Assembly: GCF_008189525.1 (NCBI RefSeq)
Contig: NZ_CP043314.1
Coordinates: 270,001-302,000, forward strand
Direction of reading: 5' to 3'
DNA: 32,000 nucleotides
From: Candidatus Saccharimonadota bacterium
Lineage (GTDB): Bacteria > Pseudomonadota > Alphaproteobacteria > CAJXXZ01 > 1604HC
Made by a program: the position numbers and the translations under genes. Numbering within the stretch: position 1 is the first letter of the stretch; each line of letters begins with the position of its first letter. The notes beneath the pieces are model-generated. The model was not told the DNA's origin, ran no database searches, and saw nothing but the letters and a program-made list of their open reading frames with translations. Shown piece by piece: positions 17-19,562 of this stretch.

Positions 17-571
17 TTATTTTATAATTTTATATTTAAGTATATTTCCAGGAGGGAAGTTTCTCCATACAGTTTCAATTCTCTTGCATGTCATGTCGAA
101 GTTTTTATACTTAAATGGTGAAAATGGAGTGTAAGTAAGCTGTAGATATGTTGCTCCTGTTTGTAACATGATTTTTTTATAGGTTTCAATAATTTCTAAT
201 GATTTTTTCTTTCCCAAAGACAGTAAAGGCACAGTAGATAATATGTATTTAATATCTTTTATGGTTTTTAAATCTAATATATCGTATATATCGCAAATAT
301 CTTTGTTTATGAAAGTTGACTCAGGGAATCTTTTTCTCAAATCATTACAGAACTCTTCTTGGATTTCGAAAGATATTAATTTAGATTTGTTCTCCATCTT
401 GTTGTAGACGTGTTCTGTTATTGTTCCGGTCCCAGCTCCAACTTCTAATATTGTTCCAGAGTTCAAATCCATATTTTTTATAAAAGCTTTTGATAAATGG
501 CTAGAGCTTGGAATAACTGATCCTGTAAGTTTGGGGTTTTTTATATATTGTTTAAAAAATACTTTTTTCAT
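17..571 (-). CDS. Class I SAM-dependent methyltransferase, small phospholipid N-methyltransferase-like (PmtA/COG3963-like) family
   Basis: 184-aa ORF. The N-terminus, FKQYIKNPKLTGSVIPSSSHL, matches the F-x-x-x-P-x-x-x-G-[AS]-x-x-PSS signature of this small methyltransferase family. SAM-binding motif I is ILEVGAGTGTIT. Its ATG overlaps the stop of the upstream paralog (ATGA at 568-571). Confidence 0.7.
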   Translation of the reverse strand: MKKVFFKQYIKNPKLTGSVIPSSSHLSKAFIKNMDLNSGTILEVGAGTGTITEHVYNKMENKSKLISFEIQEEFCNDLRKRFPESTFINKDICDIYDILDLKTIKDIKYILSTVPLLSLGKKKSLEIIETYKKIMLQTGATYLQLTYTPFSPFKYKNFDMTCKRIETVWRNFPPGNILKYKIIK

Positions 572-1242
572 TTTGTTTTTCCTTCTTTAATCTCTTTCTT
601 TTGACTATTTTCTTCAGAAAAATCCATTCCTTTTACTATAGATGAAAAGGCTTCAGAGCAATTTTTATAAGAATAATGATTTACATGTACAGTAGGAAAA
701 GATTTTATTTTTTTGCTTAGAAAATCAACAACACCTCTGTTCTTAAACACATTAGAATAAAAAGATGTATAGGAGAAATGCAACATAGGGCATAAATTAG
801 ATTCCATTATATCAGAACATTGGTTAAGTATTTTATTTCTTTCTGCTTTATTTATTAATAAAAATGGGATAGAGGATATTATTAATCTAACTCTACTCAT
901 TTCCTCTGGAGATATTATTTCAGAAAGATCTGCAGCATTTCCTTGTATTATTTTTACATTCTCGAATTTTTTTCGCAGAACTTTGCAAAAACTATCATTA
1001 ATTTCTATACATATTGATTGTGCAGAGCTATATGCTTTATTGTTTATATATTTTGTCAATGACCCAGATCCTCCGCCTATTTCAAGAATTATGTCATTTT
1101 GAGATAGGTTTTGTGAAAAATGTAAGATATGTTTACCTGCTTTTTTTGGGATCTCTCTAAAGGTCCCGGTTTTTATTGGATTTTTTAGCCAATTCAAAAA
1201 GAACATCATCTTAGTCATAAGGGTTATTCTATCATAGTTCAA
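568..1242 (-). CDS. Class I SAM-dependent methyltransferase, divergent paralog of the downstream gene
   Basis: 224-aa ORF with the same architecture: NWLKNPIKTGTF near the N-terminus (the PSS part is degenerate), and motif I ILEIGGGSGSLT. The C-terminal tail (EENSQKKEIKEGKTK) is absent in the paralog. Translationally coupled to 17..571. Confidence 0.6.
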   Translation of the reverse strand: MNYDRITLMTKMMFFLNWLKNPIKTGTFREIPKKAGKHILHFSQNLSQNDIILEIGGGSGSLTKYINNKAYSSAQSICIEINDSFCKVLRKKFENVKIIQGNAADLSEIISPEEMSRVRLIISSIPFLLINKAERNKILNQCSDIMESNLCPMLHFSYTSFYSNVFKNRGVVDFLSKKIKSFPTVHVNHYSYKNCSEAFSSIVKGMDFSEENSQKKEIKEGKTK

Positions 1243-1335
1243 TTATATTGATAATATACACAATTCTAGTTTTTTGATTAATTATTGTACCTTATTACTA
1301 TTTGTTTTAAAAAATATTAACCTACTGTTTGTAAA

Positions 1336-1408
1336 GCCAAAATAGCTCAGTTGGTAGAGCAACTGATTCGTAATCAGTAGGCCAGGTGTTCGAATCACCT
1401 TTTTGGCA
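1336..1408 (+). tRNA. tRNA-Thr (anticodon CGU)
   Basis: 73-nt cloverleaf read by hand. Acceptor GCCAAAA/TTTTGGC, D-arm GCTC-AGTTGGTA-GAGC, anticodon arm ACTGA-TTCGTAA-TCAGT (CGT at positions 34-36), variable loop AGGCC, T-arm AGGTG-TTCGAAT-CACCT, discriminator A. CCA is not encoded. Confidence 0.9.
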
Positions 1409-1740
1409 ACTTAATCCCTACAGTCTTAAGTCACCTTTTTGGCAACTTAACTCCTTCGGACTTAAATCACCTTTTTGGCAACTTAATCCCTACAGTCTTA
1501 AGTCACCTTTTTGGCAACTTAACTCCTTCGGACTTAAATCACCTTTTTGGCAACTTAATCCCTACAGTCTTAAGTCACCTTTTTGGCAACTTAATCCCTA
1601 CAGTCTTAAGTCACCTTTTTGGCAACTTAACTCCTTCGGACTTAAATCACCTTTTTGGCAACTTAATCCCTACAGTCTTAAGTCACCTTTTTGGCAACTT
1701 AATCCCTACAGTCTTAAGTCACCTTTTTGGCAACTTAACC
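1395..1740. repeat. 36-bp tandem repeat array, 9 full units plus a 22-bp partial tenth, seeded inside the 3-prime end of tRNA-Thr(CGU)
   Basis: Unit A is TCACCTTTTTGGCAACTTAATCCCTACAGTCTTAAG. Unit B is TCACCTTTTTGGCAACTTAACTCCTTCGGACTTAAA. Unit order is A-B-A-B-A-A-B-A-A followed by the partial. Copies of each type look identical by eye. The first 14 nt of every unit equal tRNA positions 60-73 (T-stem 3-prime strand, acceptor 3-prime strand and discriminator). Confidence 0.95.
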
Positions 1741-1903
1741 TATAAATAATTTGCATTATATTAACTGGTAACACGAACATAATTCATAAGTTAGGAAGCA
1801 TGATCATTGTAATTTAAATTATAAATTTGTACATGTAACTACTTGTTTAATAGTTTTTCAATTTTTTACTGTTTTTTTTCGCTTTTATGTTTTAGAATTT
1901 GCT

Positions 1904-3088
1904 GTGACTTTTTTAATATTATCATTAGGGCTCTTACTGTCAAAATTCTGGCAAGAAACTATGGTTATTTCTATTAATCCACTTTCTGAAGTAATTAATA
2001 TAAATGCATCTTATTTAGGTAAAGCAAGTCTTTTTTCTTCACTGGGATTGACTATAGGAGCCTTATTTAGTGGCCCTATAAATGATAGGTTCGGTCCTAA
2101 GAGGACTTTTCCAATTTATTTGATTCTAATATCTATTTTAAATGCTATATTAGTTATTTATAAAATGAATTTCTTGCTTCTTAATCTAATATACTTCTTG
2201 AGAAGTTTATGTATAGCTGGATGCATAAATAATATATATGTAGCTATATCTTTAATATATTTTGGAGATAGGTTGCCAAAAATGACATCAATGCTTTATA
2301 TGATGCTATTTGGTGGTAGTGCAATAATTCCTATTCTATATAAAAGTTTACTTTCTTATTTTCCTGTAAAAAGTATATTTATAGTTTTATCTTTTATAAT
2401 GGTTTTGTTTGCTATAGGGATTTATTTTATAACTCCACACAAAAAACCTGTAAAACTTAATAGAGATTTGATTAAGAAATGGAAAAATGCTTTGAAAAAT
2501 CCTGTATTTCTAGCTCTTTCTTCAGTATCCATGATTTGCATAGGTGGTTTTTATGGGTTAGTAAGTGTTTTTGGATCTTACATGGTTAGGAAAGGTGATT
2601 TTCTATATGTAATTAGAAATTTCTCTTTTTTTGTAAGATTTTTTATTTCATTGGCTTATATTCAACTGATAGGAAGGGTTTGTACGTTCATAGCATCTAC
2701 ATATTCTTCTGTTAGACTTAACAATAAAAATGTAAAAAACTTTCTGACATATGGAATTTTCCTGATGTTTGTCGGATCTATTCTGATATTTCATGGGTTA
2801 TATGTAGATAAGTTAGGTATATATGGTGTTTTTGGGTTGATTCTGTTTTGTATGGGATCAGGTATTGCTCAACCAGCTACAAAAACTTCATTGCTAAATA
2901 TAGCCAAAGAAAATGCAGGAGGCATACAATCTGTAGTTGGTTCATTCAATAGTATATATGAAGCTATAGCTTATTTTTTGGTGTTTTATTTTTCTTATCC
3001 AATAGGGTCTTACGCTTATATGATGCTAACATCTGCTTTATGCTTTATAATGTTTTTATCTTTCAAAAAATTTAAGGAGATTTTCTAA
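1904..3088 (+). CDS. Major facilitator superfamily (MFS) transporter
   Basis: 394-aa polytopic hydrophobic protein with about 12 predicted helices by eye. MFS motif A (GPINDRFGPKRT) lies between TM2 and TM3. The track start is GTG at 1904; the ATG for the Met at residue 19 (start of MVISINPL, about 1958) is an alternative. The stop overlaps the mnmA start (TAATG). Confidence 0.75.
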   Translation: MTFLILSLGLLLSKFWQETMVISINPLSEVININASYLGKASLFSSLGLTIGALFSGPINDRFGPKRTFPIYLILISILNAILVIYKMNFLLLNLIYFLRSLCIAGCINNIYVAISLIYFGDRLPKMTSMLYMMLFGGSAIIPILYKSLLSYFPVKSIFIVLSFIMVLFAIGIYFITPHKKPVKLNRDLIKKWKNALKNPVFLALSSVSMICIGGFYGLVSVFGSYMVRKGDFLYVIRNFSFFVRFFISLAYIQLIGRVCTFIASTYSSVRLNNKNVKNFLTYGIFLMFVGSILIFHGLYVDKLGIYGVFGLILFCMGSGIAQPATKTSLLNIAKENAGGIQSVVGSFNSIYEAIAYFLVFYFSYPIGSYAYMMLTSALCFIMFLSFKKFKEIF

Positions 3089-4272
3089 TGAACTTAAACT
3101 CTAAAAACAAATCTGTACAACCAGAAGTAGCAGGATTAGAGTTTCCTGTTTGGTACAGAAAACAAAGACTTGATTTGTCAAAATATATAAATTCTATGTT
3201 CGATAAAGACAAAGTAGTAGTAGCAGCCATGTCTGGTGGAGTGGACAGTTCTGTGACAGCTGCTTTAATGTGTAAAGCTGGATATAAAGTTATAGGGCTT
3301 ACTTTAAAACTTCATGATAATCCTTCAGTAGAACAAGCGATTACTGATGCAAAAAAAATCTCTGAGTTTCTTGGAATAGAACATAGAGTTTTAGATTTAA
3401 GAAAAGAATTCGACGAGCATGTTTTGTCTAAATTTTACGAAGAATATGAAGAAGGAAAAACACCTAATCCATGTATAAAATGTAATAAGAACATTAAATT
3501 CGAAGGAATGGTTGAGTATTCTAAAAGCATAGGTGCTGGTGGATTAGTTACAGGTCATTATATAAAAAGAGAAATGAGATATGGAGAAGAGTCTATAGTT
3601 AGAGGGGCAGATTCTAGCAAAGATCAAAGTTATTTTCTTTCTTTAATAGATGCTAACTATGTTCCTTTTGTAGGATTTCCTCTTGGAATAATGAATAAAT
3701 CTACAGTTAGAAGAATAGCAAGGATATTTGATCTTTTTGTTGCTAAGAAAGCTGAAAGTCAAGATTTATGTTTTGCAGTTAGCAATAGATATCACGATGT
3801 TTTAAGAATCATGGGATCTAAAGATAGAAGCGGAGAGATTGTAAACTGTAAAACTGGGAAAGTTTTAGGTGAACATGATGGAATATCTAGATTTACAATA
3901 GGACAAAGAAAAGGACTTAATTTACCTTACGGTCCGTGGTTTGTTAATAAAATAGATAACAAAACTAATCAAGTTTTTGTAGGTAGATTAAAAGATGTAC
4001 AATGTCATGAAATTTGGATTAATGAAATAAACTTGCTTAGAGATTTTACAAAGAAAGAAAATGTTAGGGTAAAGATAAGAGGATCACAAACCCCAGTTCC
4101 TGCTAAGTTGGAAATAAATGGTAAAGAAGGAAGAGTGATTCTGGAAAATGCAGAATATGGTATTTCTCCAGGACAGGTATGTGGATTTTATTATGATGAT
4201 ATTTTGTTTGGCGGTGGTTATATAGTAGAAAAAGAAGATTTGTCTGAATTATCTAAAAAATCTGCAGATTAA
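3088..4272 (+). CDS. mnmA: tRNA 2-thiouridine(34) synthase MnmA
   Basis: PP-loop AAMSGGVDSSVTAALM, the catalytic-Cys region NPCIKCN, and SKDQSYFL, DLCF and GQRKGL blocks in MnmA order. About 30 aa of extra N-terminus. Confidence 0.9.
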   Translation: MNLNSKNKSVQPEVAGLEFPVWYRKQRLDLSKYINSMFDKDKVVVAAMSGGVDSSVTAALMCKAGYKVIGLTLKLHDNPSVEQAITDAKKISEFLGIEHRVLDLRKEFDEHVLSKFYEEYEEGKTPNPCIKCNKNIKFEGMVEYSKSIGAGGLVTGHYIKREMRYGEESIVRGADSSKDQSYFLSLIDANYVPFVGFPLGIMNKSTVRRIARIFDLFVAKKAESQDLCFAVSNRYHDVLRIMGSKDRSGEIVNCKTGKVLGEHDGISRFTIGQRKGLNLPYGPWFVNKIDNKTNQVFVGRLKDVQCHEIWINEINLLRDFTKKENVRVKIRGSQTPVPAKLEINGKEGRVILENAEYGISPGQVCGFYYDDILFGGGYIVEKEDLSELSKKSAD

Positions 4273-4478
4273 TATATTAATATAGCTTATGTGTTTTATT
4301 TTTAATAAATCCTAAAATATCTAGTAAGCGTCTCTTAATACATAAACTATTTCACAAAAAACCTGATCAACATTATATTTCTTATTAATTATTTAAGAAC
4401 CCTAATTATATTTATTTTGATTTGATTTATTTCTCAATATGATTGTTAATTTTTGTATAATTATGATGTAATTGTTTT

Positions 4479-4877
4479 GTGATATTCGGTATAGGTGTAG
4501 ATATTTTTAATTTGAGCAGAATGGAAACAGTTTTCAAAAGAACCCCAAATTTTGCAAATAGAATATTATCTCAATCAGAAAAAGACATGAAATTTGTCAA
4601 TACAGAAATGAGAAATGAAAAAGTAGGAAAGATATTTTCTATTAAAGAATCTTTTAGTAAGGCGCTAGGGACTGGAATTGGAGAACATTGTGGTTGGAAA
4701 GATATATCTATATTAAAAAATGACCTTGGTAAGCCAATTATAGAAATACAAGGCAAGCCTTTAGAATCTTTAAGTACATTCAAGAGATTTAGTATACATT
4801 GCTCTACAAGTGATGAATTCATAAATGAACAGAAAATATTCATTTCGAAAGTTATAATAGAAATTTTTCCTGATTAG
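4479..4877 (+). CDS. acpS: Holo-[acyl-carrier-protein] synthase (4-phosphopantetheinyl transferase)
   Basis: 132 aa with a GTG start. The N-terminus MIFGIGVDIFNLSR matches the AcpS G-I-G-x-D-I signature. KESFSKALGTG matches the KEA-x-x-KA-x-G block. Confidence 0.85.
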   Translation: MIFGIGVDIFNLSRMETVFKRTPNFANRILSQSEKDMKFVNTEMRNEKVGKIFSIKESFSKALGTGIGEHCGWKDISILKNDLGKPIIEIQGKPLESLSTFKRFSIHCSTSDEFINEQKIFISKVIIEIFPD

Positions 4878-6557: not shown

Positions 6558-8036
6558 TTAATCTTTCTTCTTGCTATGAATTTTCTGTACGCTCAGCTTT
6601 CCATCGTAGAATTCTATTGAAAAACTTTCAGGTGCATCTTTTTTGCTTTTTATTAATTTTTCATCAGAAAAAGCTCTACAAAAACCTCTTTTAAGTATTT
6701 CATGGTAAGATGCATTTTCTAAATTTTTGAGCATGAAATCAAGTTTAGATTTATTCTTTGAAAACATATGATTAATAATTAAATTTAAATTAGAATGAAT
6801 GTGTTGTATTTTGGAAAGCTCACAGCTGAAATTAGGCTTTGAAACAGATAACTTAGAAAGGTTTCTTTTTTTAGAAATATAGTGAGAGAAAGAAAATTCT
6901 AATAAACTAGTTTTGTTTTGTAGTTTTGTATTAAAAGGCTCTAAAACAGACTCAAATCTTTTTGTTCTTACCCACATCATTTCTGACAATTTTCTTTTAA
7001 TAGTGTTTTTCAAAATCATTTTTTTATTTGCACATAAATCACAAATTTCTCTTATAATATTTTTTCTGTCTGGAAAAATTAACTCAATAGAAGCAGTTGG
7101 TGTAGGTGCTCTCAAAGAGCTAGCATAGTCTGATAAAGTTGTATCAGTTTCATGTCCAATTGCAGTTACTATAGGTATTTTACTTTTTGATATCTCTCTA
7201 ACAATATGTTCATCTTGGAAGCTCCATAAGTCTTCAAAACTACCTCCTCCTCTGGCAATAATTATTACATCTACTTCATTGAAGTATTTATCATTAAATC
7301 CTTTGATTGCAGAAACTACATTTTCTACCGTTTCACTTCCTTGTACAGCTGTAGGCCAAAGCAGAACATCACAAGGATATCTATCTTTTAATCTATGAAG
7401 CATATCATGTAAAACTGCACCTGTAGGGGATGTTATTATTCCTATTTTTCTGGGGAATTTTGGTAATTTAGGTTTTCGTAATGGATCAAACAAACCTTCT
7501 TTTCTAAGTTTTTCTTTTCTTTCTTCTAGTATTTTTGAAGAACCTAAATGCTCTACAGATAATACTACTATTTGATACTTAGATCTTCCAGGATATGATG
7601 AAACTCTTCCAGTGCAAATTATTTCCATATCATGCTGAGGTTCGAACTTTAATTTTATATTTGCCCAACATACACAATCTATAACAGCATCCTCTTCTTT
7701 TAATGAGAAATATAAATGAGTAGATCTTTTAGGTTGAGAAACTTGCCCTTTTATAGATATTTTAGAATAAGAAGATTCAAGTAATTTTTTTATGGATAAC
7801 GCTAAAGTTTTTACTCCAATAACTCCATCACTTGTTTCTATATCAGAGCTTATTGTATTTTTAGTGCTTAATGTTGATTGTTTATCATATTTAATCTGGC
7901 TTAAGTTTTCTGACGAAGAAGAGACTGTACCATACTTACTTCCTGCTGCATCACTTAAAGAATTTTTTGTACTATTTAAAGAATTTAACTTGGAATGTGA
8001 ATTTTGGTTGTCTATTAAACCTTTGCTAGAATTCAT
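6558..8036 (-). CDS. xseA: Exodeoxyribonuclease VII large subunit
   Basis: 492 aa. OB-fold region ISIKGQVSQPKRSTHLYFSLKEEDAVIDCVCW, catalytic core GIITSPTGAVLHDM ... IIARGGGSFEDLWSFQDE ... PIVTAIGHETDTTLSDYASSLRAPTPTA, and a coiled-coil tail. About 70 aa of Ser/Asn-rich N-terminal extension. Confidence 0.85.
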   Translation of the reverse strand: MNSSKGLIDNQNSHSKLNSLNSTKNSLSDAAGSKYGTVSSSSENLSQIKYDKQSTLSTKNTISSDIETSDGVIGVKTLALSIKKLLESSYSKISIKGQVSQPKRSTHLYFSLKEEDAVIDCVCWANIKLKFEPQHDMEIICTGRVSSYPGRSKYQIVVLSVEHLGSSKILEERKEKLRKEGLFDPLRKPKLPKFPRKIGIITSPTGAVLHDMLHRLKDRYPCDVLLWPTAVQGSETVENVVSAIKGFNDKYFNEVDVIIIARGGGSFEDLWSFQDEHIVREISKSKIPIVTAIGHETDTTLSDYASSLRAPTPTASIELIFPDRKNIIREICDLCANKKMILKNTIKRKLSEMMWVRTKRFESVLEPFNTKLQNKTSLLEFSFSHYISKKRNLSKLSVSKPNFSCELSKIQHIHSNLNLIINHMFSKNKSKLDFMLKNLENASYHEILKRGFCRAFSDEKLIKSKKDAPESFSIEFYDGKLSVQKIHSKKKD

Positions 8037-8177
8037 TGATGAATTTTGTACTGTTTTATATTTTTTATCAATCTAGATTTTTTATTTTTTTCTAAAACTA
8101 AATTTTAATTTCTTAATTTTTAGAGGCATATTAGATTAGGTTTATTCAATTATGCTTAATTAATAATGTTTTTATTT

Positions 8178-10034
8178 TTATTGATGTCTTTTTAATTGTA
8201 AGTTGCTTGCTGAATCTAAAGATTCTATTAATGCATTAGTATCTTTGTAATAAGAGCCATCATAAACATTAGCCTCGTTTGGGTTTTTATTTAATCTCTT
8301 TATTTGTGTAATCTTGATTGATTGATTTATATGTTGAGATTTTTCTCTGGAAGATTTTTTGATTGTGTTTGAATTTTTTTCAAAATATAAATCTTGCATA
8401 GGGGATAAACTTGCTATATCAAAAATATCTGATATTTTCTCTATTTTATTGGGATTGTTTGCATGATCCAAGTTTTCTAGATCAATGCCTTCTAATCCTA
8501 AACCTAAATCTTCTTTTAATATGTTATTATCCCTATTGAATTCATTTGTTTTTATGAGATTTTCTGTAGCATGTTTTTTATATGTAATAGGTTTTAGCGC
8601 AAACTTTCCTTCATTTATTTTTCTTATAACTTCATGATCATGCTCTATTAACTTTCCATTTTGTAAATAATTAATTTGGAAGTTATGGTTAGACTGTACG
8701 AACTCTATATTTATATTAAATGATCTTTCTATATCAAATATTTGCTCTTTATAACTGTTCAAAATATGAGTCAGAATTTCTTGTCTAGTGCCTACTATTA
8801 TTTTTGTTATTCCATCTTTTACAGCTACTATTCTGATGTTTTTTATAATAGAAGAAACAATTATGCTTGGTAATTTAAGGAAGCCGATTCCTTTGCACGA
8901 GCTGCACTTAGAGTGTGTAGATCTTAATATATTTGTCCTGATTTGTTGTCTCGACATGCTAAGTAATCCAAATTTATCTATATTACCAACATTAAATTTT
9001 GCTTTATCATTTTCTAATCTAAGCTTTATAGTTTCTTCTAACATTTGTTCATTGCTTGAGCTGTTCATATCTATAAAATCAATTACTATCAATCCACCTA
9101 TATCTCTAAGTTGTATTTGGTGAGCTATTTCTTCTGCTGCTTCTAGATTTACTAATAATGAATTCTCATCTATATTTTTTACTTTTTTGCATGAACCGGA
9201 GTTTATATCTATTGCTGTAAGAGCTTCGGTATAAGATATTTTTATATATCCACCACAAGGAAGGTTTATTCTATCACTATACAGCGCTTCTATTTGATCC
9301 ATAATCTCATGTTTTTCAAAAATAGGTTGTTTATCTTTATGTGGTTTTATTTTTATCCTGTTTTTTATAATATCTTTTATTTTTAAATGACCTTCAATAT
9401 GTATTTCTGTATTTTTCTTATAATAATCTCTTATAATTTTCTCTGCTAAGTTAAATTCTTCTCTTATTAAATGTATTTCTTTTTTAGAATAACTTTCTTC
9501 TATTGTATTTAGTATTTTTTGAACATTTACGCAGTCTTGATCCAACGCTTCTAGGTTTTCATCTTCAGATTCTTTTCTGAAAATTACATTTAGACTTTCT
9601 TTGAATCCTTTTTCATTGAACCAATTTTGTAGAATTTCTCTTTTTTCTAAAGAAGTTATTTTTTTTGATATTCCCATGTTTTTTACTTTATTAGCAACAA
9701 ATATCATTAAAAGGGTTTTTATTTCTACGAATGAAGTTAATGTAACTCCTTTATTATCCTTCTCATCTTTAGTGACTTGTACCGCTATGAACTCTCCTTT
9801 TCTAAGGACTTTAAAAGCATGAGAAAATGGTAGAAATCCATTTTTTTCATTTCCATAGTTTATAAAATATGCTTGTAAAGAGTGCTCGACGTGATCAACT
9901 TGTCCTAAATATATATTTCCTATTATAGATTTTTTATCATTTGATTCATAAAAGAAGTGAACTAATCTTTCCTCTTCTTTTATAGCTACTTGTAAATTTT
10001 TTTCATCAGATGCATCTATTAAAATGCTTTTCAC
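8178..10034 (-). CDS. rne: Ribonuclease E/G family endoribonuclease
   Basis: 618 aa with a GTG start. The N-terminus MKSILIDASDEKNLQVAIKEE parallels RNase E MKRMLINATQQEELRVA. S1 region GNIYLGQVDHVEHSLQAYFINYG. Catalytic block TAIDINSG ... EIAHQIQLRDIGGLIVIDFIDM. Zn-link-like CSSCKGIG. Low-complexity C-terminal tail. Confidence 0.85.
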   Translation of the reverse strand: MKSILIDASDEKNLQVAIKEEERLVHFFYESNDKKSIIGNIYLGQVDHVEHSLQAYFINYGNEKNGFLPFSHAFKVLRKGEFIAVQVTKDEKDNKGVTLTSFVEIKTLLMIFVANKVKNMGISKKITSLEKREILQNWFNEKGFKESLNVIFRKESEDENLEALDQDCVNVQKILNTIEESYSKKEIHLIREEFNLAEKIIRDYYKKNTEIHIEGHLKIKDIIKNRIKIKPHKDKQPIFEKHEIMDQIEALYSDRINLPCGGYIKISYTEALTAIDINSGSCKKVKNIDENSLLVNLEAAEEIAHQIQLRDIGGLIVIDFIDMNSSSNEQMLEETIKLRLENDKAKFNVGNIDKFGLLSMSRQQIRTNILRSTHSKCSSCKGIGFLKLPSIIVSSIIKNIRIVAVKDGITKIIVGTRQEILTHILNSYKEQIFDIERSFNINIEFVQSNHNFQINYLQNGKLIEHDHEVIRKINEGKFALKPITYKKHATENLIKTNEFNRDNNILKEDLGLGLEGIDLENLDHANNPNKIEKISDIFDIASLSPMQDLYFEKNSNTIKKSSREKSQHINQSIKITQIKRLNKNPNEANVYDGSYYKDTNALIESLDSASNLQLKRHQ

Positions 10035-17906: not shown

Positions 17907-19562
17907 ATGAATATATCTAATTTATCCATGAATAAGAATTTACCAAGAACTTGGGCTATGAAATGTGCTCAAAAATTATTAAAAAGGGATTTTATTATTC
18001 TGGAAACTGGATATGGGCCTTCTGGGTTGCCTCATTTAGGCACAGTAGCTGAAGTTATAAGAACAAGAATGATACAAAACTGTTTAGATATTCTAGGAAA
18101 AGAATCTAAAATAATAGTTTTTGTAGATGATATGGATGGATTCAGAAAAGTACCTACAAATCTTCCGAATCAAGATATGTTAGCGAACTATTTGCACCTT
18201 CCTCTTTGTAAGGTTCCAGATCCATTTGGCTGCTGTGAAAGCTACGCTGATCATAATACGAATGAGCTGATTAAGCTTTTAAAAACTTTTGGACTAGAAG
18301 ATAAGGTAGAAATTATGAAATCTAGTGACAAATATAATTCAGGTGAGTTTGATGAAAATTTGGTTCAGGTTCTTAATAATTATGAAAAAATATTAAATGT
18401 AATGTTACCAACCTTAGGAGAAGCAAGACAGAAAACTTATAGTCCATTTCTGCCTATATCTCAGAAAAATGGACATGTTCTTGAAGTTAAGATAGAAAAG
18501 TATTTAAAAGAAGAAAAAAGTATATGCTTCTATGATCAAGGTGAGTTGGTTAAAATGCCGGTAACTGGTGGAAATTGTAAACTTCAGTGGAAAGTGGACT
18601 GGGGAATGAGATGGGCTGCTCTTGGAGTCGATTTTGAGATGTACGGCAAGGACTTAATAGATAGTTATTCTGTTTCTAAACAAATATGTACAATTTTAGG
18701 ATCCAGAGCTCCTAATAATATGGTTTACGAGCTTTTCCTTGATTCAGAAGGAAAGAAAATATCAAAATCTAAGGGTAATGGAATAAGTTTGGAAGAATGG
18801 CTTAATTATGCAACAGAAGATAGTGTAAAGCACTTTTTGTTTTTGAATCCTGATAGGGCAAAAAATCTAGACAAAAAGGATTTGCATAAATATGTAGATA
18901 ATTACTTGTCAGATCTTGAGAAGTATAGGAATTCAATATCAAATTCAGATTTACATTCTAACTTTGCTTTGGATAATCATCCTAATCATCCTAGCTTTGC
19001 TTTGGATAATCATCCTAGCTCTGCTTTGGATAATAGTTCTAGAAAAGATTTTGTTTTAAATGAGCATGATTATAGAAATATCACTGAAAATCCTGTTTTT
19101 TATGTGCATGAAGGTGTAGTTCCACCTGTGTCTAGAGTTTCATATAGTATGATTTTAAATCTTGCTAAAGGATTAAGAAGCCCTGATTTCCTTACTTTCA
19201 AAAATTTTATAGAAAATAAGATTGGGAAATTAAATATAACAGAAGACAAGGTTGTAGAATCAGTTTTTAAGTTTTATGAATCTTACAAAACAAAACCTTC
19301 TGAAACTCCAGAATGGATAAAATCTTACATGAAAGTTTTCTTGGAGAAATTAGATTCATTAGAGTCTGGAAATGATATGCAGCAAGAATTGTACTTACTT
19401 GGAAACAAAGCTGTTTTTAATAATGATGTAGCAGATTTAAAAAGTTGGTTCAAAGCTATCTATGGAATCTTGTTTGGGGAAGAGTCTGGACCAAGGTTAG
19501 GCCCATTTTTCGAATTATATGGTAAAGATGAAGCTAGAAAAATGATCGAAAGCATTATTTGA
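17907..19562 (+). CDS. lysK: Lysine--tRNA ligase, class I
   Basis: 551 aa. Class I architecture: HIGH-type region GYGPSGLPHLGTVAEVIR and KMSKS-type loop KISKSKGNG, with no class II motifs. Class I LysRS is characteristic of archaea, spirochaetes and many alphaproteobacteria, including Rickettsiales. Confidence 0.9.
   Translation: MNISNLSMNKNLPRTWAMKCAQKLLKRDFIILETGYGPSGLPHLGTVAEVIRTRMIQNCLDILGKESKIIVFVDDMDGFRKVPTNLPNQDMLANYLHLPLCKVPDPFGCCESYADHNTNELIKLLKTFGLEDKVEIMKSSDKYNSGEFDENLVQVLNNYEKILNVMLPTLGEARQKTYSPFLPISQKNGHVLEVKIEKYLKEEKSICFYDQGELVKMPVTGGNCKLQWKVDWGMRWAALGVDFEMYGKDLIDSYSVSKQICTILGSRAPNNMVYELFLDSEGKKISKSKGNGISLEEWLNYATEDSVKHFLFLNPDRAKNLDKKDLHKYVDNYLSDLEKYRNSISNSDLHSNFALDNHPNHPSFALDNHPSSALDNSSRKDFVLNEHDYRNITENPVFYVHEGVVPPVSRVSYSMILNLAKGLRSPDFLTFKNFIENKIGKLNITEDKVVESVFKFYESYKTKPSETPEWIKSYMKVFLEKLDSLESGNDMQQELYLLGNKAVFNNDVADLKSWFKAIYGILFGEESGPRLGPFFELYGKDEARKMIESII
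18960..19036. repeat. Imperfect in-frame tandem repeat inside lysK
   Basis: TTTGCTTTGGATAATCATCCT occurs twice and CTGCTTTGGATAAT a third time. Together they encode FALDNHPNHPS-FALDNHPS-SALDNSS, an insertion between the catalytic and C-terminal domains. Confidence 0.7.

What the first reader, a model, noticed from the sequence alone, without database searches (positions are those of the whole stretch)
1336..1740. Perfect 36-bp tandem array that re-copies the 3-prime end of tRNA-Thr(CGU) ten times
The last 14 nt of the tRNA (TCACCTTTTTGGCA: T-stem 3-prime strand, acceptor 3-prime strand and discriminator A) form the head of a 36-bp unit. That unit repeats head to tail nine times, with a tenth partial copy, directly downstream of the gene. 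So the tRNA 3-prime end occurs ten times in 346 bp. Two unit types differ only in a 10-nt core and the last base (A: TCCCTACAGT...G; B: CTCCTTCGGA...A). They occur in the order A-B-A-B-A-A-B-A-A, and the last six units read as a duplicated 108-bp B-A-A super-unit. Copies within a type look identical, which implies recent expansion or active homogenisation. Each tail can fold: type A as ACTTAA/TTAAGT, type B as a TCC-TTC-GGA or C(UUCG)G-type mini-hairpin flanked by TTAA/TTAA. CCA is not encoded, so tRNA maturation needs a cut after the discriminator. Every unit recreates that same cut-site context (CACCUUUUUGGCA|ACUUAA). Each unit is also complementary to the tRNA 5-prime acceptor strand. Three origins are possible: a slippage VNTR, scars of repeated site-specific recombination at a tRNA att site (though no integrase is nearby), or a functional 3-prime trailer acting as a processing decoy or regulator. 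I know of no described element with this architecture.
Basis: partly seen in the sequence, partly recalled or inferred. Interest (0 to 1): 0.72.

Follow-up and report, generated by a model that had tools for sequence, protein, structure and literature searches.

The report
Young tandem repeat copying a tRNA tail
A 36-base stretch spanning the end of a threonine tRNA gene has been copied head to tail about ten times in a tiny endosymbiont genome; it is most likely a recent, harmless slippage repeat, with a known parallel behind the E. coli tyrosine tRNA genes.

Summary
tRNA-Thr(CGU) lies at 1336-1408. A 36-bp array at 1395-1739 starts with the last 14 nt of the tRNA: 9 full units plus a 21-nt partial, order A-B-A-B-A-A-B-A-A, identical within each type.

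The window is Candidatus Nesciobacter abundans, a 616-kb Holosporaceae endosymbiont of Diplonema japonicum. The matching assembly is PacBio HiFi, so a short-read artefact is unlikely.

Five related genomes carry a nearly identical tRNA 3' end, four of them beside the same MFS-mnmA operon. None has an array, and their trailers are unrelated. The array is therefore young and specific to this lineage.

The unit hairpins are no more stable than shuffled sequence. No Rfam family, integrase or credible gene is present.

The architecture has a precedent. The E. coli tyrT/tyrV 178-bp x3.1 repeat (RtT RNA) also begins with the tRNA 3' end, from the T-loop onward.

A second case turned up in the co-resident symbiont C. 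primus, at tRNA-Thr(GGU): a perfect 65-bp duplication plus an isolated 17-nt copy.

Best reading: a neutral minisatellite seeded by a duplication across the tRNA/trailer boundary and expanded by slippage or unequal exchange. A functional trailer is not excluded. Interest is modest.

The parts
1336..1408 (+). tRNA-Thr(CGU) gene, intact, no encoded CCA. Its last 14 nt (1395-1408) form the head of the first repeat unit.
   Evidence: ARAGORN. Rfam RF00005, 75.7 bits. The 3' end is conserved in orthologues from five related genomes.
1395..1739 (.). 36-bp minisatellite: 9 full units plus a 21-nt partial unit. A units start at 1395, 1467, 1539, 1575, 1647, 1683. B units start at 1431, 1503, 1611. The partial unit is 1719-1739.
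   Evidence: TRF period 36, 9.6 copies, score 562. Unit-by-unit listing. 9 matches against 0 expected in shuffles.
1395..1538 (.). Exact duplication of a 72-bp A-B super-unit.
   Evidence: String identity 1395-1466 = 1467-1538.
1503..1718 (.). Exact duplication of a 108-bp B-A-A super-unit. The partial unit that follows continues it in B register.
   Evidence: String identity 1503-1610 = 1611-1718. The partial unit ends ACTTAAC.
1386..1745 (+). 119-codon ORF running through the array (SPFWQLNPYSLK / SPFWQLNSFGLK repeats). Judged spurious: it is open because the unit is a multiple of 3 and has no stop in this frame.
   Evidence: Its only start codon is a GTG inside the tRNA T-stem. No Pfam match. 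An HMMER search of 1.84 billion representatives returns only unrelated 12-residue-period repeat proteins.
1317..1324 (+). TTAACCTA, 12 nt upstream of the tRNA. Its only other copy in the window is at the distal edge of the array.
   Evidence: two occurrences in 32 kb (1317 and 1735), about 1.1 expected per strand.
1735..1742 (+). TTAACCTA at the junction between the array and unique flank. It overlaps a promoter-like site (TTAACC-16-TATATT, 1735-1762) facing the MFS gene.
1904..4877 (+). Downstream context: MFS transporter (1904-3088), MnmA (3088-4272), AcpS (4479-4877), on the same strand as the tRNA and array.
   Evidence: NCBIfam and Pfam. Gene order is conserved in relatives, where the tRNA mostly sits on the opposite strand.

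Best explanation
This is a young minisatellite (VNTR) specific to the N. abundans lineage, with no demonstrated function of its own.

A 36-bp segment straddling the boundary between the tRNA-Thr(CGU) 3' end and its trailer was duplicated in tandem. One end lay in the A-rich 3' part of the T-loop and the other in the AT-rich trailer. This occurred at a locally rearranged junction between the tRNA and the MFS-mnmA-acpS operon. The array then grew by replication slippage and/or RecA-dependent unequal exchange, in steps of one, two (A-B, 72 bp) and three (B-A-A, 108 bp) units. That is why copies within a type are identical.

A tandem duplication always leaves the first copy attached to the intact 5' part of the gene. 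The tRNA therefore stays functional, and the nine further 14-mers are inert partial copies.

Inferred, not shown: no terminator separates the tRNA from the array, so the array is probably transcribed as a long 3' trailer. It would then be discarded when the CCA-less precursor is cut after the discriminator (RNase Z-type maturation followed by CCA addition) or degraded via RNase E/G, which is encoded at 8178-10034.
For: Shown:
- The array is real and exact and sits in a HiFi-based assembly.
- The orthologous tRNA-Thr(CGU) in C. indipagum, C. primus, MAG CP060235 and a fourth genome (L010) keeps a nearly identical 3' end, lacks any repeat, and has unrelated trailers. The tRNA's strand relative to MFS differs among genomes, so this is a rearrangement-prone junction.
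- There are no unit-private mutations, and there are exact 72-bp and 108-bp super-unit duplications.
- Other perfect intergenic tandem arrays occur in this clade: 9 bp x16.3 and 23 bp x2 in L002, 9 bp x11 and 65 bp x2 in L003.
- RecA/RecFOR is retained, according to George et al. (bioRxiv 10.1101/719211).
- No structural signal: unit z-scores are -0.19 and -0.64, and tRNA plus array gives z = -1.75. No Rfam family is found even at E<=1. No terminator-like site lies in the array.
- No integrase or transposase is in the window.
- There is a precedent for the same architecture arising at another tRNA, E. coli tyrT/tyrV.
Against: - All six A/B differences fall in the 16 nt outside the tRNA-derived head plus ACTTAA. 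P is about 0.04 that none of six random differences hits the 14-nt head (my calculation, C(22,6)/C(36,6)). This could reflect constraint or conversion by the tRNA gene.
- In the ORF frame the six differences are 2 synonymous changes plus P/S, Y/F and S/G. That is more conservative than random (p about 0.01-0.03 under uniform substitutions).
- A second, independent re-copying of a tRNA-Thr 3' end exists in the co-resident symbiont C. primus. Only 2 of 27 tRNAs surveyed show re-copies, which hints at something more specific than random slippage.
- Copy-number variability, the defining behaviour of a VNTR, could not be tested.
- Transcription and processing are inferred only.
Confidence: 0.6

Rival explanations
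1. Functional 3' trailer. The array is co-transcribed with tRNA-Thr and processed into repeated small RNAs, as RtT RNA is released from the E. coli tyrT transcript. Alternatively it acts in cis, for example as a buffer or insulator between the strong tRNA promoter and the MFS-mnmA-acpS operon, or as a competitor for 3'-end processing enzymes.
For: - It has the same architecture as the tyrT/RtT repeats, which yield an annotated sRNA.
- No terminator separates tRNA and array, and they lie on the same strand as the downstream operon.
- The tRNA-derived head is invariant, while variation is confined to the core.
- Folding shows that the ten 3' acceptor-strand copies are iso-energetic partners for the tRNA 5' strand.
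Against: - It is absent from all relatives at the orthologous site, so it is not a conserved function.
- Unit folds are no better than shuffled sequence.
- There is no match to RF00391 or any Rfam family.
- RNase Z recognises the tRNA body, which the partial copies lack (established knowledge).
- No expression data are available; the public RNA-seq is poly(A)-selected.
Confidence: 0.15
2. Scar of site-specific recombination at a tRNA att site. An integrative element once used the T-loop-to-3'-end block of tRNA-Thr as attB. The duplicated att copy plus a tiny remnant was left behind and later amplified by slippage.
For: - The copied block starts in the T-loop and runs past the discriminator, which is where att identity blocks of tRNA-targeting integrases lie (own knowledge: Williams 2002 classification).
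- In C. primus an isolated exact 17-mer copy of the tRNA-Thr(GGU) 3' end lies 206 nt downstream of the genuine copy, and its flanks are unrelated to the 65-bp unit. That resembles an attL/attR pair.
- Both cases sit at synteny breakpoints.
Against: - No integrase, transposase or phage gene is in the 32-kb window or the 2 kb upstream.
- The genomes are reported to have very few mobile elements.
- 22-nt spacers are far too short for an element or for excision.
- The regular two-type super-unit pattern needs slippage or unequal exchange anyway.
Confidence: 0.1
3. The array encodes, or derives from, a repeat protein: ORF 1386-1745, with 12-residue repeats SPFWQLNPYSLK / SPFWQLNSFGLK.
For: - The ORF is open for 119 codons and was called as a gene in one annotation.
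- The A/B differences are 2 synonymous changes plus 3 conservative replacements (p about 0.01-0.03, uncorrected for three frames and for transition bias).
Against: - The only start codon is a GTG inside the tRNA T-stem, with no spaced ribosome-binding site.
- A second forward frame is open too, so an open frame is expected for a 36-bp unit.
- There is no Pfam match.
- HMMER hits are unrelated 12-residue-period repeats with different motifs.
- No such ORF exists in relatives.
Confidence: 0.03
4. Assembly artefact: an inflated or mis-ordered repeat.
For: - The 119-aa ORF product is on record for only one of the two N. abundans assemblies.
- The older 616,088-bp Illumina assembly could not be retrieved for comparison.
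Against: - The matching assembly was built from HiFi reads at high coverage, and such reads span 345 bp many times over.
- The missing ORF record is explained equally well by different gene callers.
- The non-periodic A/B order is not what a collapsed or expanded repeat usually looks like.
Confidence: 0.02

Closest known systems
E. coli tyrT/tyrV 3' repeats (RtT RNA, Rfam RF00391; rttR and tpr)
   Same: A tandem repeat lies directly downstream of a tRNA gene, and its unit begins with the tRNA's 3'-terminal segment. The last 19 nt of tRNA-Tyr occur 6 times, and the 178-bp x3.1 array overlaps the tyrV 3' end. In both loci the copied block starts in the last bases of the T-loop. Both arrays also contain a small doubtful ORF (tpr there, the 119-codon ORF here).
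   Different: The unit is 178 bp against 36 bp. There are 3.1 copies at 95% identity against 9.6 copies in two exact types. The E. coli copies include the encoded CCA. RtT units match a structured Rfam model at 133-138 bits, whereas the N. abundans array matches nothing. There is no sequence homology. RtT is conserved in enterobacteria and annotated as an sRNA, while this array is absent from all relatives.
Bacterial intergenic minisatellites (VNTRs) generated by slipped-strand mispairing or unequal recombination
   Same: Head-to-tail units of 10-100 bp, near-perfect identity, presence specific to one lineage, and higher-order duplications. Other such arrays occur in sister genomes.
   Different: One third of the unit is the 3' end of an active tRNA gene. 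Copy-number polymorphism is not shown.
attL/attR duplications at tRNA genes made by integrative elements
   Same: A direct repeat of the tRNA segment from the T-loop to beyond the 3' end.
   Different: There is no integrase and no element. The spacing is 22 nt, and there are ten copies in strict tandem.
C. primus tRNA-Thr(GGU) 3' flank (found here, L003 1133-1413, minus strand)
   Same: A perfect tandem duplication (65 bp x2.0) whose unit starts with the last 17 nt of the tRNA, again from the T-loop. It is species-specific, being absent in C. indipagum and a third genome. The bacterium lives in the same host strain.
   Different: There are only two tandem copies plus one isolated 17-nt copy. 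It involves a different isoacceptor and an unrelated trailer.

Membership tests
tyrT-type tRNA-3'-end tandem repeat / RtT RNA (RF00391) | Tandem repeat immediately downstream of a tRNA gene whose unit starts with the tRNA 3'-terminal segment | tested here: met
   N. abundans. E. coli reference.
tyrT-type tRNA-3'-end tandem repeat / RtT RNA (RF00391) | Match to the RtT covariance model (sequence plus structure) | tested here: not met
   No hit at gathering score or at E<=1. The positive control gives four hits of 133-138 bits in E. coli.
tyrT-type tRNA-3'-end tandem repeat / RtT RNA (RF00391) | Released as a stable RNA from the tRNA primary transcript | not testable with these tools
   No total-RNA data. 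The available RNA-seq is poly(A)-selected.
Minisatellite / VNTR | Head-to-tail units of 10-100 bp with high identity, far beyond chance | tested here: met
Minisatellite / VNTR | Absent at the orthologous site in related genomes (recent origin) | tested here: met
Minisatellite / VNTR | Copy number varies between strains, assemblies or reads | tested here: inconclusive
   The second assembly (616,088 bp) could not be retrieved.
tRNA att-site duplication by an integrative element | Direct repeat of the tRNA 3' block, from the T-loop or anticodon loop to the 3' end | tested here: met
tRNA att-site duplication by an integrative element | Integrase gene and element-sized DNA between the repeats | tested here: not met
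   Spacers are 22 nt. No recombinase is in the window or in L001.
Intrinsic terminator array | G+C-rich stem directly followed by a U tract | tested here: not met
   No terminator-like site at 1409-1900 on the + strand. Unit hairpins reach only -2.4 and -2.8 kcal/mol.
CRISPR array | Conserved repeats separated by unique spacers of similar length, with cas genes nearby | tested here: not met
   Only two 10-nt 'spacer' types are present. No cas genes were found.
Protein-coding tandem repeat | Credible start site, and homologues or a domain family | tested here: not met

The most novel reading that the evidence does not exclude
Re-copying of tRNA 3' ends is a specific, recurrent process rather than random slippage. 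Two independent, species-specific events occurred at tRNA-Thr genes in the two symbionts that share one host cell. In both, and in E. coli tyrT, the copy begins in the last bases of the T-loop. This could reflect fork stalling and template switching at the T-arm of highly transcribed tRNA genes, or an unrecognised recombinase. The resulting trailer may also be processed into 36-nt RNAs, each carrying the tRNA's 3' acceptor strand, with a regulatory or decoy role.
Probability: 0.12. Interest if true: 0.6.

Novelty: new member of a known kind. Interest (0 to 1): 0.3.

Why it matters
If it is a plain VNTR, its value is practical. It would be a ready strain-typing or population marker for an uncultivable symbiont. 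It also warns annotators, because the array was called as a 119-aa gene.

It adds a clean second and third example, besides E. coli tyrT, showing that tandem duplications can start inside the T-loop of a tRNA gene without harming it.

If the recurrence is mechanistic or the trailer is processed, it would link tRNA genes to local genome instability, or to a new class of trailer-derived RNAs in reduced genomes.

Tried and rejected
1. Genome-wide dispersal of the 22-nt trailer. The single genome-contig scan returned only three single hits in Bacteroidetes MAGs, none near a tRNA, and did not return N. abundans at all. Dispersal could therefore be excluded only within the 32-kb window plus L001.

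2. Metagenome and viral scans of the 20-mer TCACCTTTTTGGCAACTTAA. These gave three unrelated Bacteroidetes-like promoter regions with no tRNA, and zero viral hits.

3. Retrieving the older Illumina assembly to compare copy number. Three look-ups always showed only the OY490516.1 place, and the cluster look-up did not help.

4. RNA structure. Neither the units nor the whole trailer are significantly structured. At E<=1 Rfam gives only noise, namely group II intron fragments and plastid UTR models on the minus strand.

5. Coding hypothesis. No family or homologues were found.

6. Derivation of the A-type trailer from the tRNA 5' leader (TTAACCTACTGT against TTAATCCCTACAGT). Not significant: 85 of 1000 shuffles, and 4% of genomic 40-mers, score as well.

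7. Is the third C. primus copy a decayed tandem unit? No. Its flanks show no similarity above shuffles.

8. Replication-origin or iteron idea. There is no skew switch or rep/dnaA context in the window.

9. Literature searches for earlier descriptions of this array or of tRNA-3'-end tandem repeats found nothing relevant. The classic tyrT papers (Egan & Landy 1978; Rossi et al. 1981; Bösl & Kersten 1991) are cited from memory only.

Full report
**1. The observation**

The window carries tRNA-Thr(CGT) at 1336-1408 on the + strand (ARAGORN; Rfam RF00005, 75.7 bits). CCA is not encoded. Tandem Repeats Finder reports a 36-bp period with 9.6 copies at 1395-1738, score 562.

Listing the units gives:
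- six identical A units (TCACCTTTTTGGCAACTTAATCCCTACAGTCTTAAG);
- three identical B units (TCACCTTTTTGGCAACTTAACTCCTTCGGACTTAAA);
- the order A-B-A-B-A-A-B-A-A;
- a 21-nt partial unit (1719-1739) that ends with the B-type base.

The head of every unit is the last 14 nt of the tRNA, or 16 nt in B units. That 14-mer occurs ten times here and nowhere else in the window on either strand. A and B differ at unit positions 21, 22, 26, 28, 30 and 36. The 72-bp A-B block and the 108-bp B-A-A block are each exactly duplicated. The trailer pattern gives 9 matches against 0 expected in shuffles.

**2. Source and reliability**

The flanking MFS and MnmA proteins are identical to those of Candidatus Nesciobacter abundans. 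This is a Holosporaceae endosymbiont of the diplonemid Diplonema japonicum with a genome of about 616 kb. The array region is identical in OY490516.1 (GCA_960610765.1), at about 572,861-573,264 in record coordinates. That assembly was made from PacBio HiFi reads (PMC13598402), which span a 345-bp array easily.

An older Illumina/SPAdes assembly of 616,088 bp exists (bioRxiv 10.1101/719211). I could not retrieve it, so copy-number stability is untested.

**3. Context**

The window holds housekeeping genes: two PmtA-like methyltransferases, MFS, MnmA, AcpS, XseA, RNase E/G, MurC, MurG, AspRS, LysRS, TyrRS, FtsW and others. No integrase, transposase, phage or cas gene is present. George et al. 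report very few mobile elements and retained MutSL and RecA/RecFOR in these genomes.

The tRNA and the array lie directly upstream of, and on the same strand as, MFS-mnmA-acpS. No terminator-like site separates them. A weak promoter-like site sits at the distal array edge, 1735-1762.

**4. Comparative evidence**

I fetched the syntenic MFS-mnmA locus from five relatives: C. indipagum L002, C. primus L003, MAG CP060235 L004, and two further about-620-kb genomes, L010 and L011.

- Four of them carry tRNA-Thr(CGU) next to MFS with a nearly identical 3' end (TTCACCTTTTTGGCA in two; single-base variants in L004 and L010).
- None has any repeat after it, and their trailers are unrelated to each other and to N. 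abundans.
- The tRNA is on the opposite strand in three of them, on the same strand in L010, and not found in the L011 locus. The tRNA/MFS junction is therefore a rearrangement hotspot, and the N. abundans junction is new.

The array is thus young and lineage-specific.

**5. A second case**

While surveying the 27 tRNA genes in the 178 kb of Nesciobacter/Cytomitobacter sequence held, I found one other tRNA whose 3' end is re-copied. It is tRNA-Thr(GGU) of C. primus (L003 1340-1413, minus strand).

- A perfect 65-bp x2.0 tandem duplication (TRF) starts with the last 17 nt of the tRNA (AAATCTCTCCAATGGCA).
- A third, isolated exact 17-mer (ATCTCTCCAATGGCATA) starts 206 nt downstream of the genuine copy. 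Its flanks show no similarity to the 65-bp unit.
- The orthologous tRNA in C. indipagum and in the L014 genome has the same 3' end but no copies.

C. primus and N. abundans live in the same host strain.

Perfect intergenic arrays unrelated to tRNAs also occur in these genomes: 9 bp x16.3 and 23 bp x2 in L002, and 9 bp x11 in L003. Tandem duplication is therefore generally active in this clade.

A rough estimate of mine assumes about 8 intergenic arrays and about 1.5% of intergenic start positions lying in tRNA 3' ends. It gives about 0.1 expected chance overlaps beyond the case that selected this window. The second case is suggestive but not decisive.

**6. Tests of function**

The tRNA plus array gives z = -1.75, which includes the tRNA itself. 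The MFE pairs the tRNA 5' acceptor strand with the most distal 3' copy. This shows only that the ten copies are iso-energetic partners; co-transcriptional folding should favour the first.

*Rfam.* Nothing but the tRNA appears at gathering score, and only noise at E<=1.

*Coding.* The array is an open frame of 119 codons, and one annotation called it as a gene.
- Its only start codon is a GTG inside the T-stem.
- A second forward frame is open as well.
- Pfam finds nothing.
- A full HMMER search of 1.84 billion representatives returns only heterogeneous 12-residue-period repeats with unrelated motifs.
- The one oddity is that the six A/B differences translate to 2 synonymous changes plus P/S, Y/F and S/G. 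That gives p about 0.01-0.03 under uniform substitutions, uncorrected for three frames and for the 4:2 transition excess. I treat this as a weak hint.

**7. Known precedent**

I fetched NC_000913.3 1,286,300-1,288,000.

- TRF finds a 178-bp x3.1 array overlapping the 3' end of tyrV.
- The last 19 nt of tRNA-Tyr (AATCCTTCCCCCACCACCA) occur six times on that strand.
- RefSeq annotates the sRNA rttR and the ORF tpr inside the repeats.
- Rfam RF00391 (RtT) hits four units at 133-138 bits.
- A recent preprint summarises rtT as processed from the tyrT transcript, with a suspected link to the stringent response (10.1101/2024.07.17.603846).
- The original descriptions (Egan & Landy 1978; Rossi et al. 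1981; Bösl & Kersten 1991) are cited from my own memory.

In E. coli, N. abundans and C. primus alike, the copied block begins in the last 1-4 bases of the T-loop (AAT, (AA)T, AAAT/AT) and runs past the discriminator. My inference is that the A-rich 3' half of the T-loop is the only stretch near a tRNA 3' end offering microhomology with AT-rich trailers. A duplication junction there also leaves the first copy of the gene intact, so such events are tolerated. The N. abundans array is not a member of the RtT family. It is an architectural analogue.

**8. Verdict**

The best-supported explanation (about 0.6) is a neutral, recently expanded minisatellite. It was seeded by a tandem duplication across the tRNA/trailer boundary at a rearranged junction. 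It then grew by slippage or unequal exchange in 36-, 72- and 108-bp steps. It is probably transcribed as a disposable 3' trailer; that last step is inferred.

Rivals:
- a functional RtT-like or insulating trailer (0.15);
- an amplified att scar (0.1);
- a real repeat protein (0.03);
- an artefact (0.02).

Points the neutral model does not fully explain:
- the confinement of all variation to the non-tRNA core;
- the coding-like pattern of A/B differences;
- the parallel event in the co-resident symbiont.

The finding is real but is a new instance of a known kind of feature. Interest is modest (0.3). It would rise if read-level, RNA-level or genome-wide tests show specificity or processing.

Noticed in passing
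L003 1133-1413 (minus strand; C. primus OX638200.1): The tRNA-Thr(GGU) 3' end is re-copied. There is a perfect 65-bp x2 tandem duplication starting with the last 17 nt of the tRNA. There is also an isolated exact 17-mer copy starting 206 nt downstream of the genuine copy, with unrelated flanks. Both are absent from the orthologous tRNA in two other genomes.
   Followed up: yes
L002 14483-14629; L003 7307-7405: Perfect 9-bp tandem arrays (AATCCATAA x16.3; AACTAAAAC x11) in Cytomitobacter intergenic DNA. Both were called as small ORFs (89 aa and 46 aa) in the gene tables, the same kind of annotation artefact as the 119-aa ORF here.
   Followed up: partly
window 1317-1324 and 1735-1742: The 8-mer TTAACCTA occurs only twice in the 32-kb window (about 1.1 expected per strand), and the two copies bracket the tRNA plus array. 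This could be microhomology or a target-site-like duplication from the rearrangement that placed the tRNA here, or it could be chance (p about 0.03).
   Followed up: partly
window 1943->1916 (minus strand): The best promoter-like match in the region (TTGACA-16-TAATAT with an upstream TG, 10/12) lies inside the start of the MFS ORF and points towards the array. A transcript from it would carry ten copies of the complement of the tRNA 3' end. No expression evidence is available.
   Followed up: no
L002, L003, L004, L010, L011 around 7000-8900: The block CSD - tRNA-Leu(CAA) - NUDIX - tRNA-Thr(CGU) upstream of MFS is shuffled between genomes. The tRNA strands flip, NUDIX is lost in L010, and tRNA-Thr(CGU) is missing from the L011 locus. 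tRNA genes mark the synteny breakpoints in this clade.
   Followed up: partly
window 29896-30084 (ORF 29605-30222) and 18954-19042 (inside the class I LysRS gene 17907-19562): In-frame coding tandem repeats. A 75-bp x2.5 repeat lies in an acidic 205-aa protein with no Pfam match. 24/33-bp repeats (FALDNHP...) lie just after the LysRS catalytic domain.
   Followed up: no
window 17-571 and 568-1242 (minus strand): Two adjacent paralogous PmtA/OlsG-like lipid N-methyltransferase genes with overlapping stop and start. Both score well below the NCBIfam cut-offs, so they are divergent.
   Followed up: no
L015 1659-1678, L016 713-732, L017 8704-8723: The 20-mer TCACCTTTTTGGCAACTTAA also occurs in three metagenome contigs. 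There it lies in a conserved non-tRNA upstream region that precedes a conserved GGTGGTACCACGGAAGACTTCGTCCC hairpin element. It is unrelated to the tRNA array and looks like a Bacteroidota-type promoter or leader.
   Followed up: no
Genome-contig collection: The trailer pattern scan did not return N. abundans at all, although the pattern occurs nine times in this window. Either the species is not in that collection, or its representative assembly differs or is masked at this locus.
   Followed up: no
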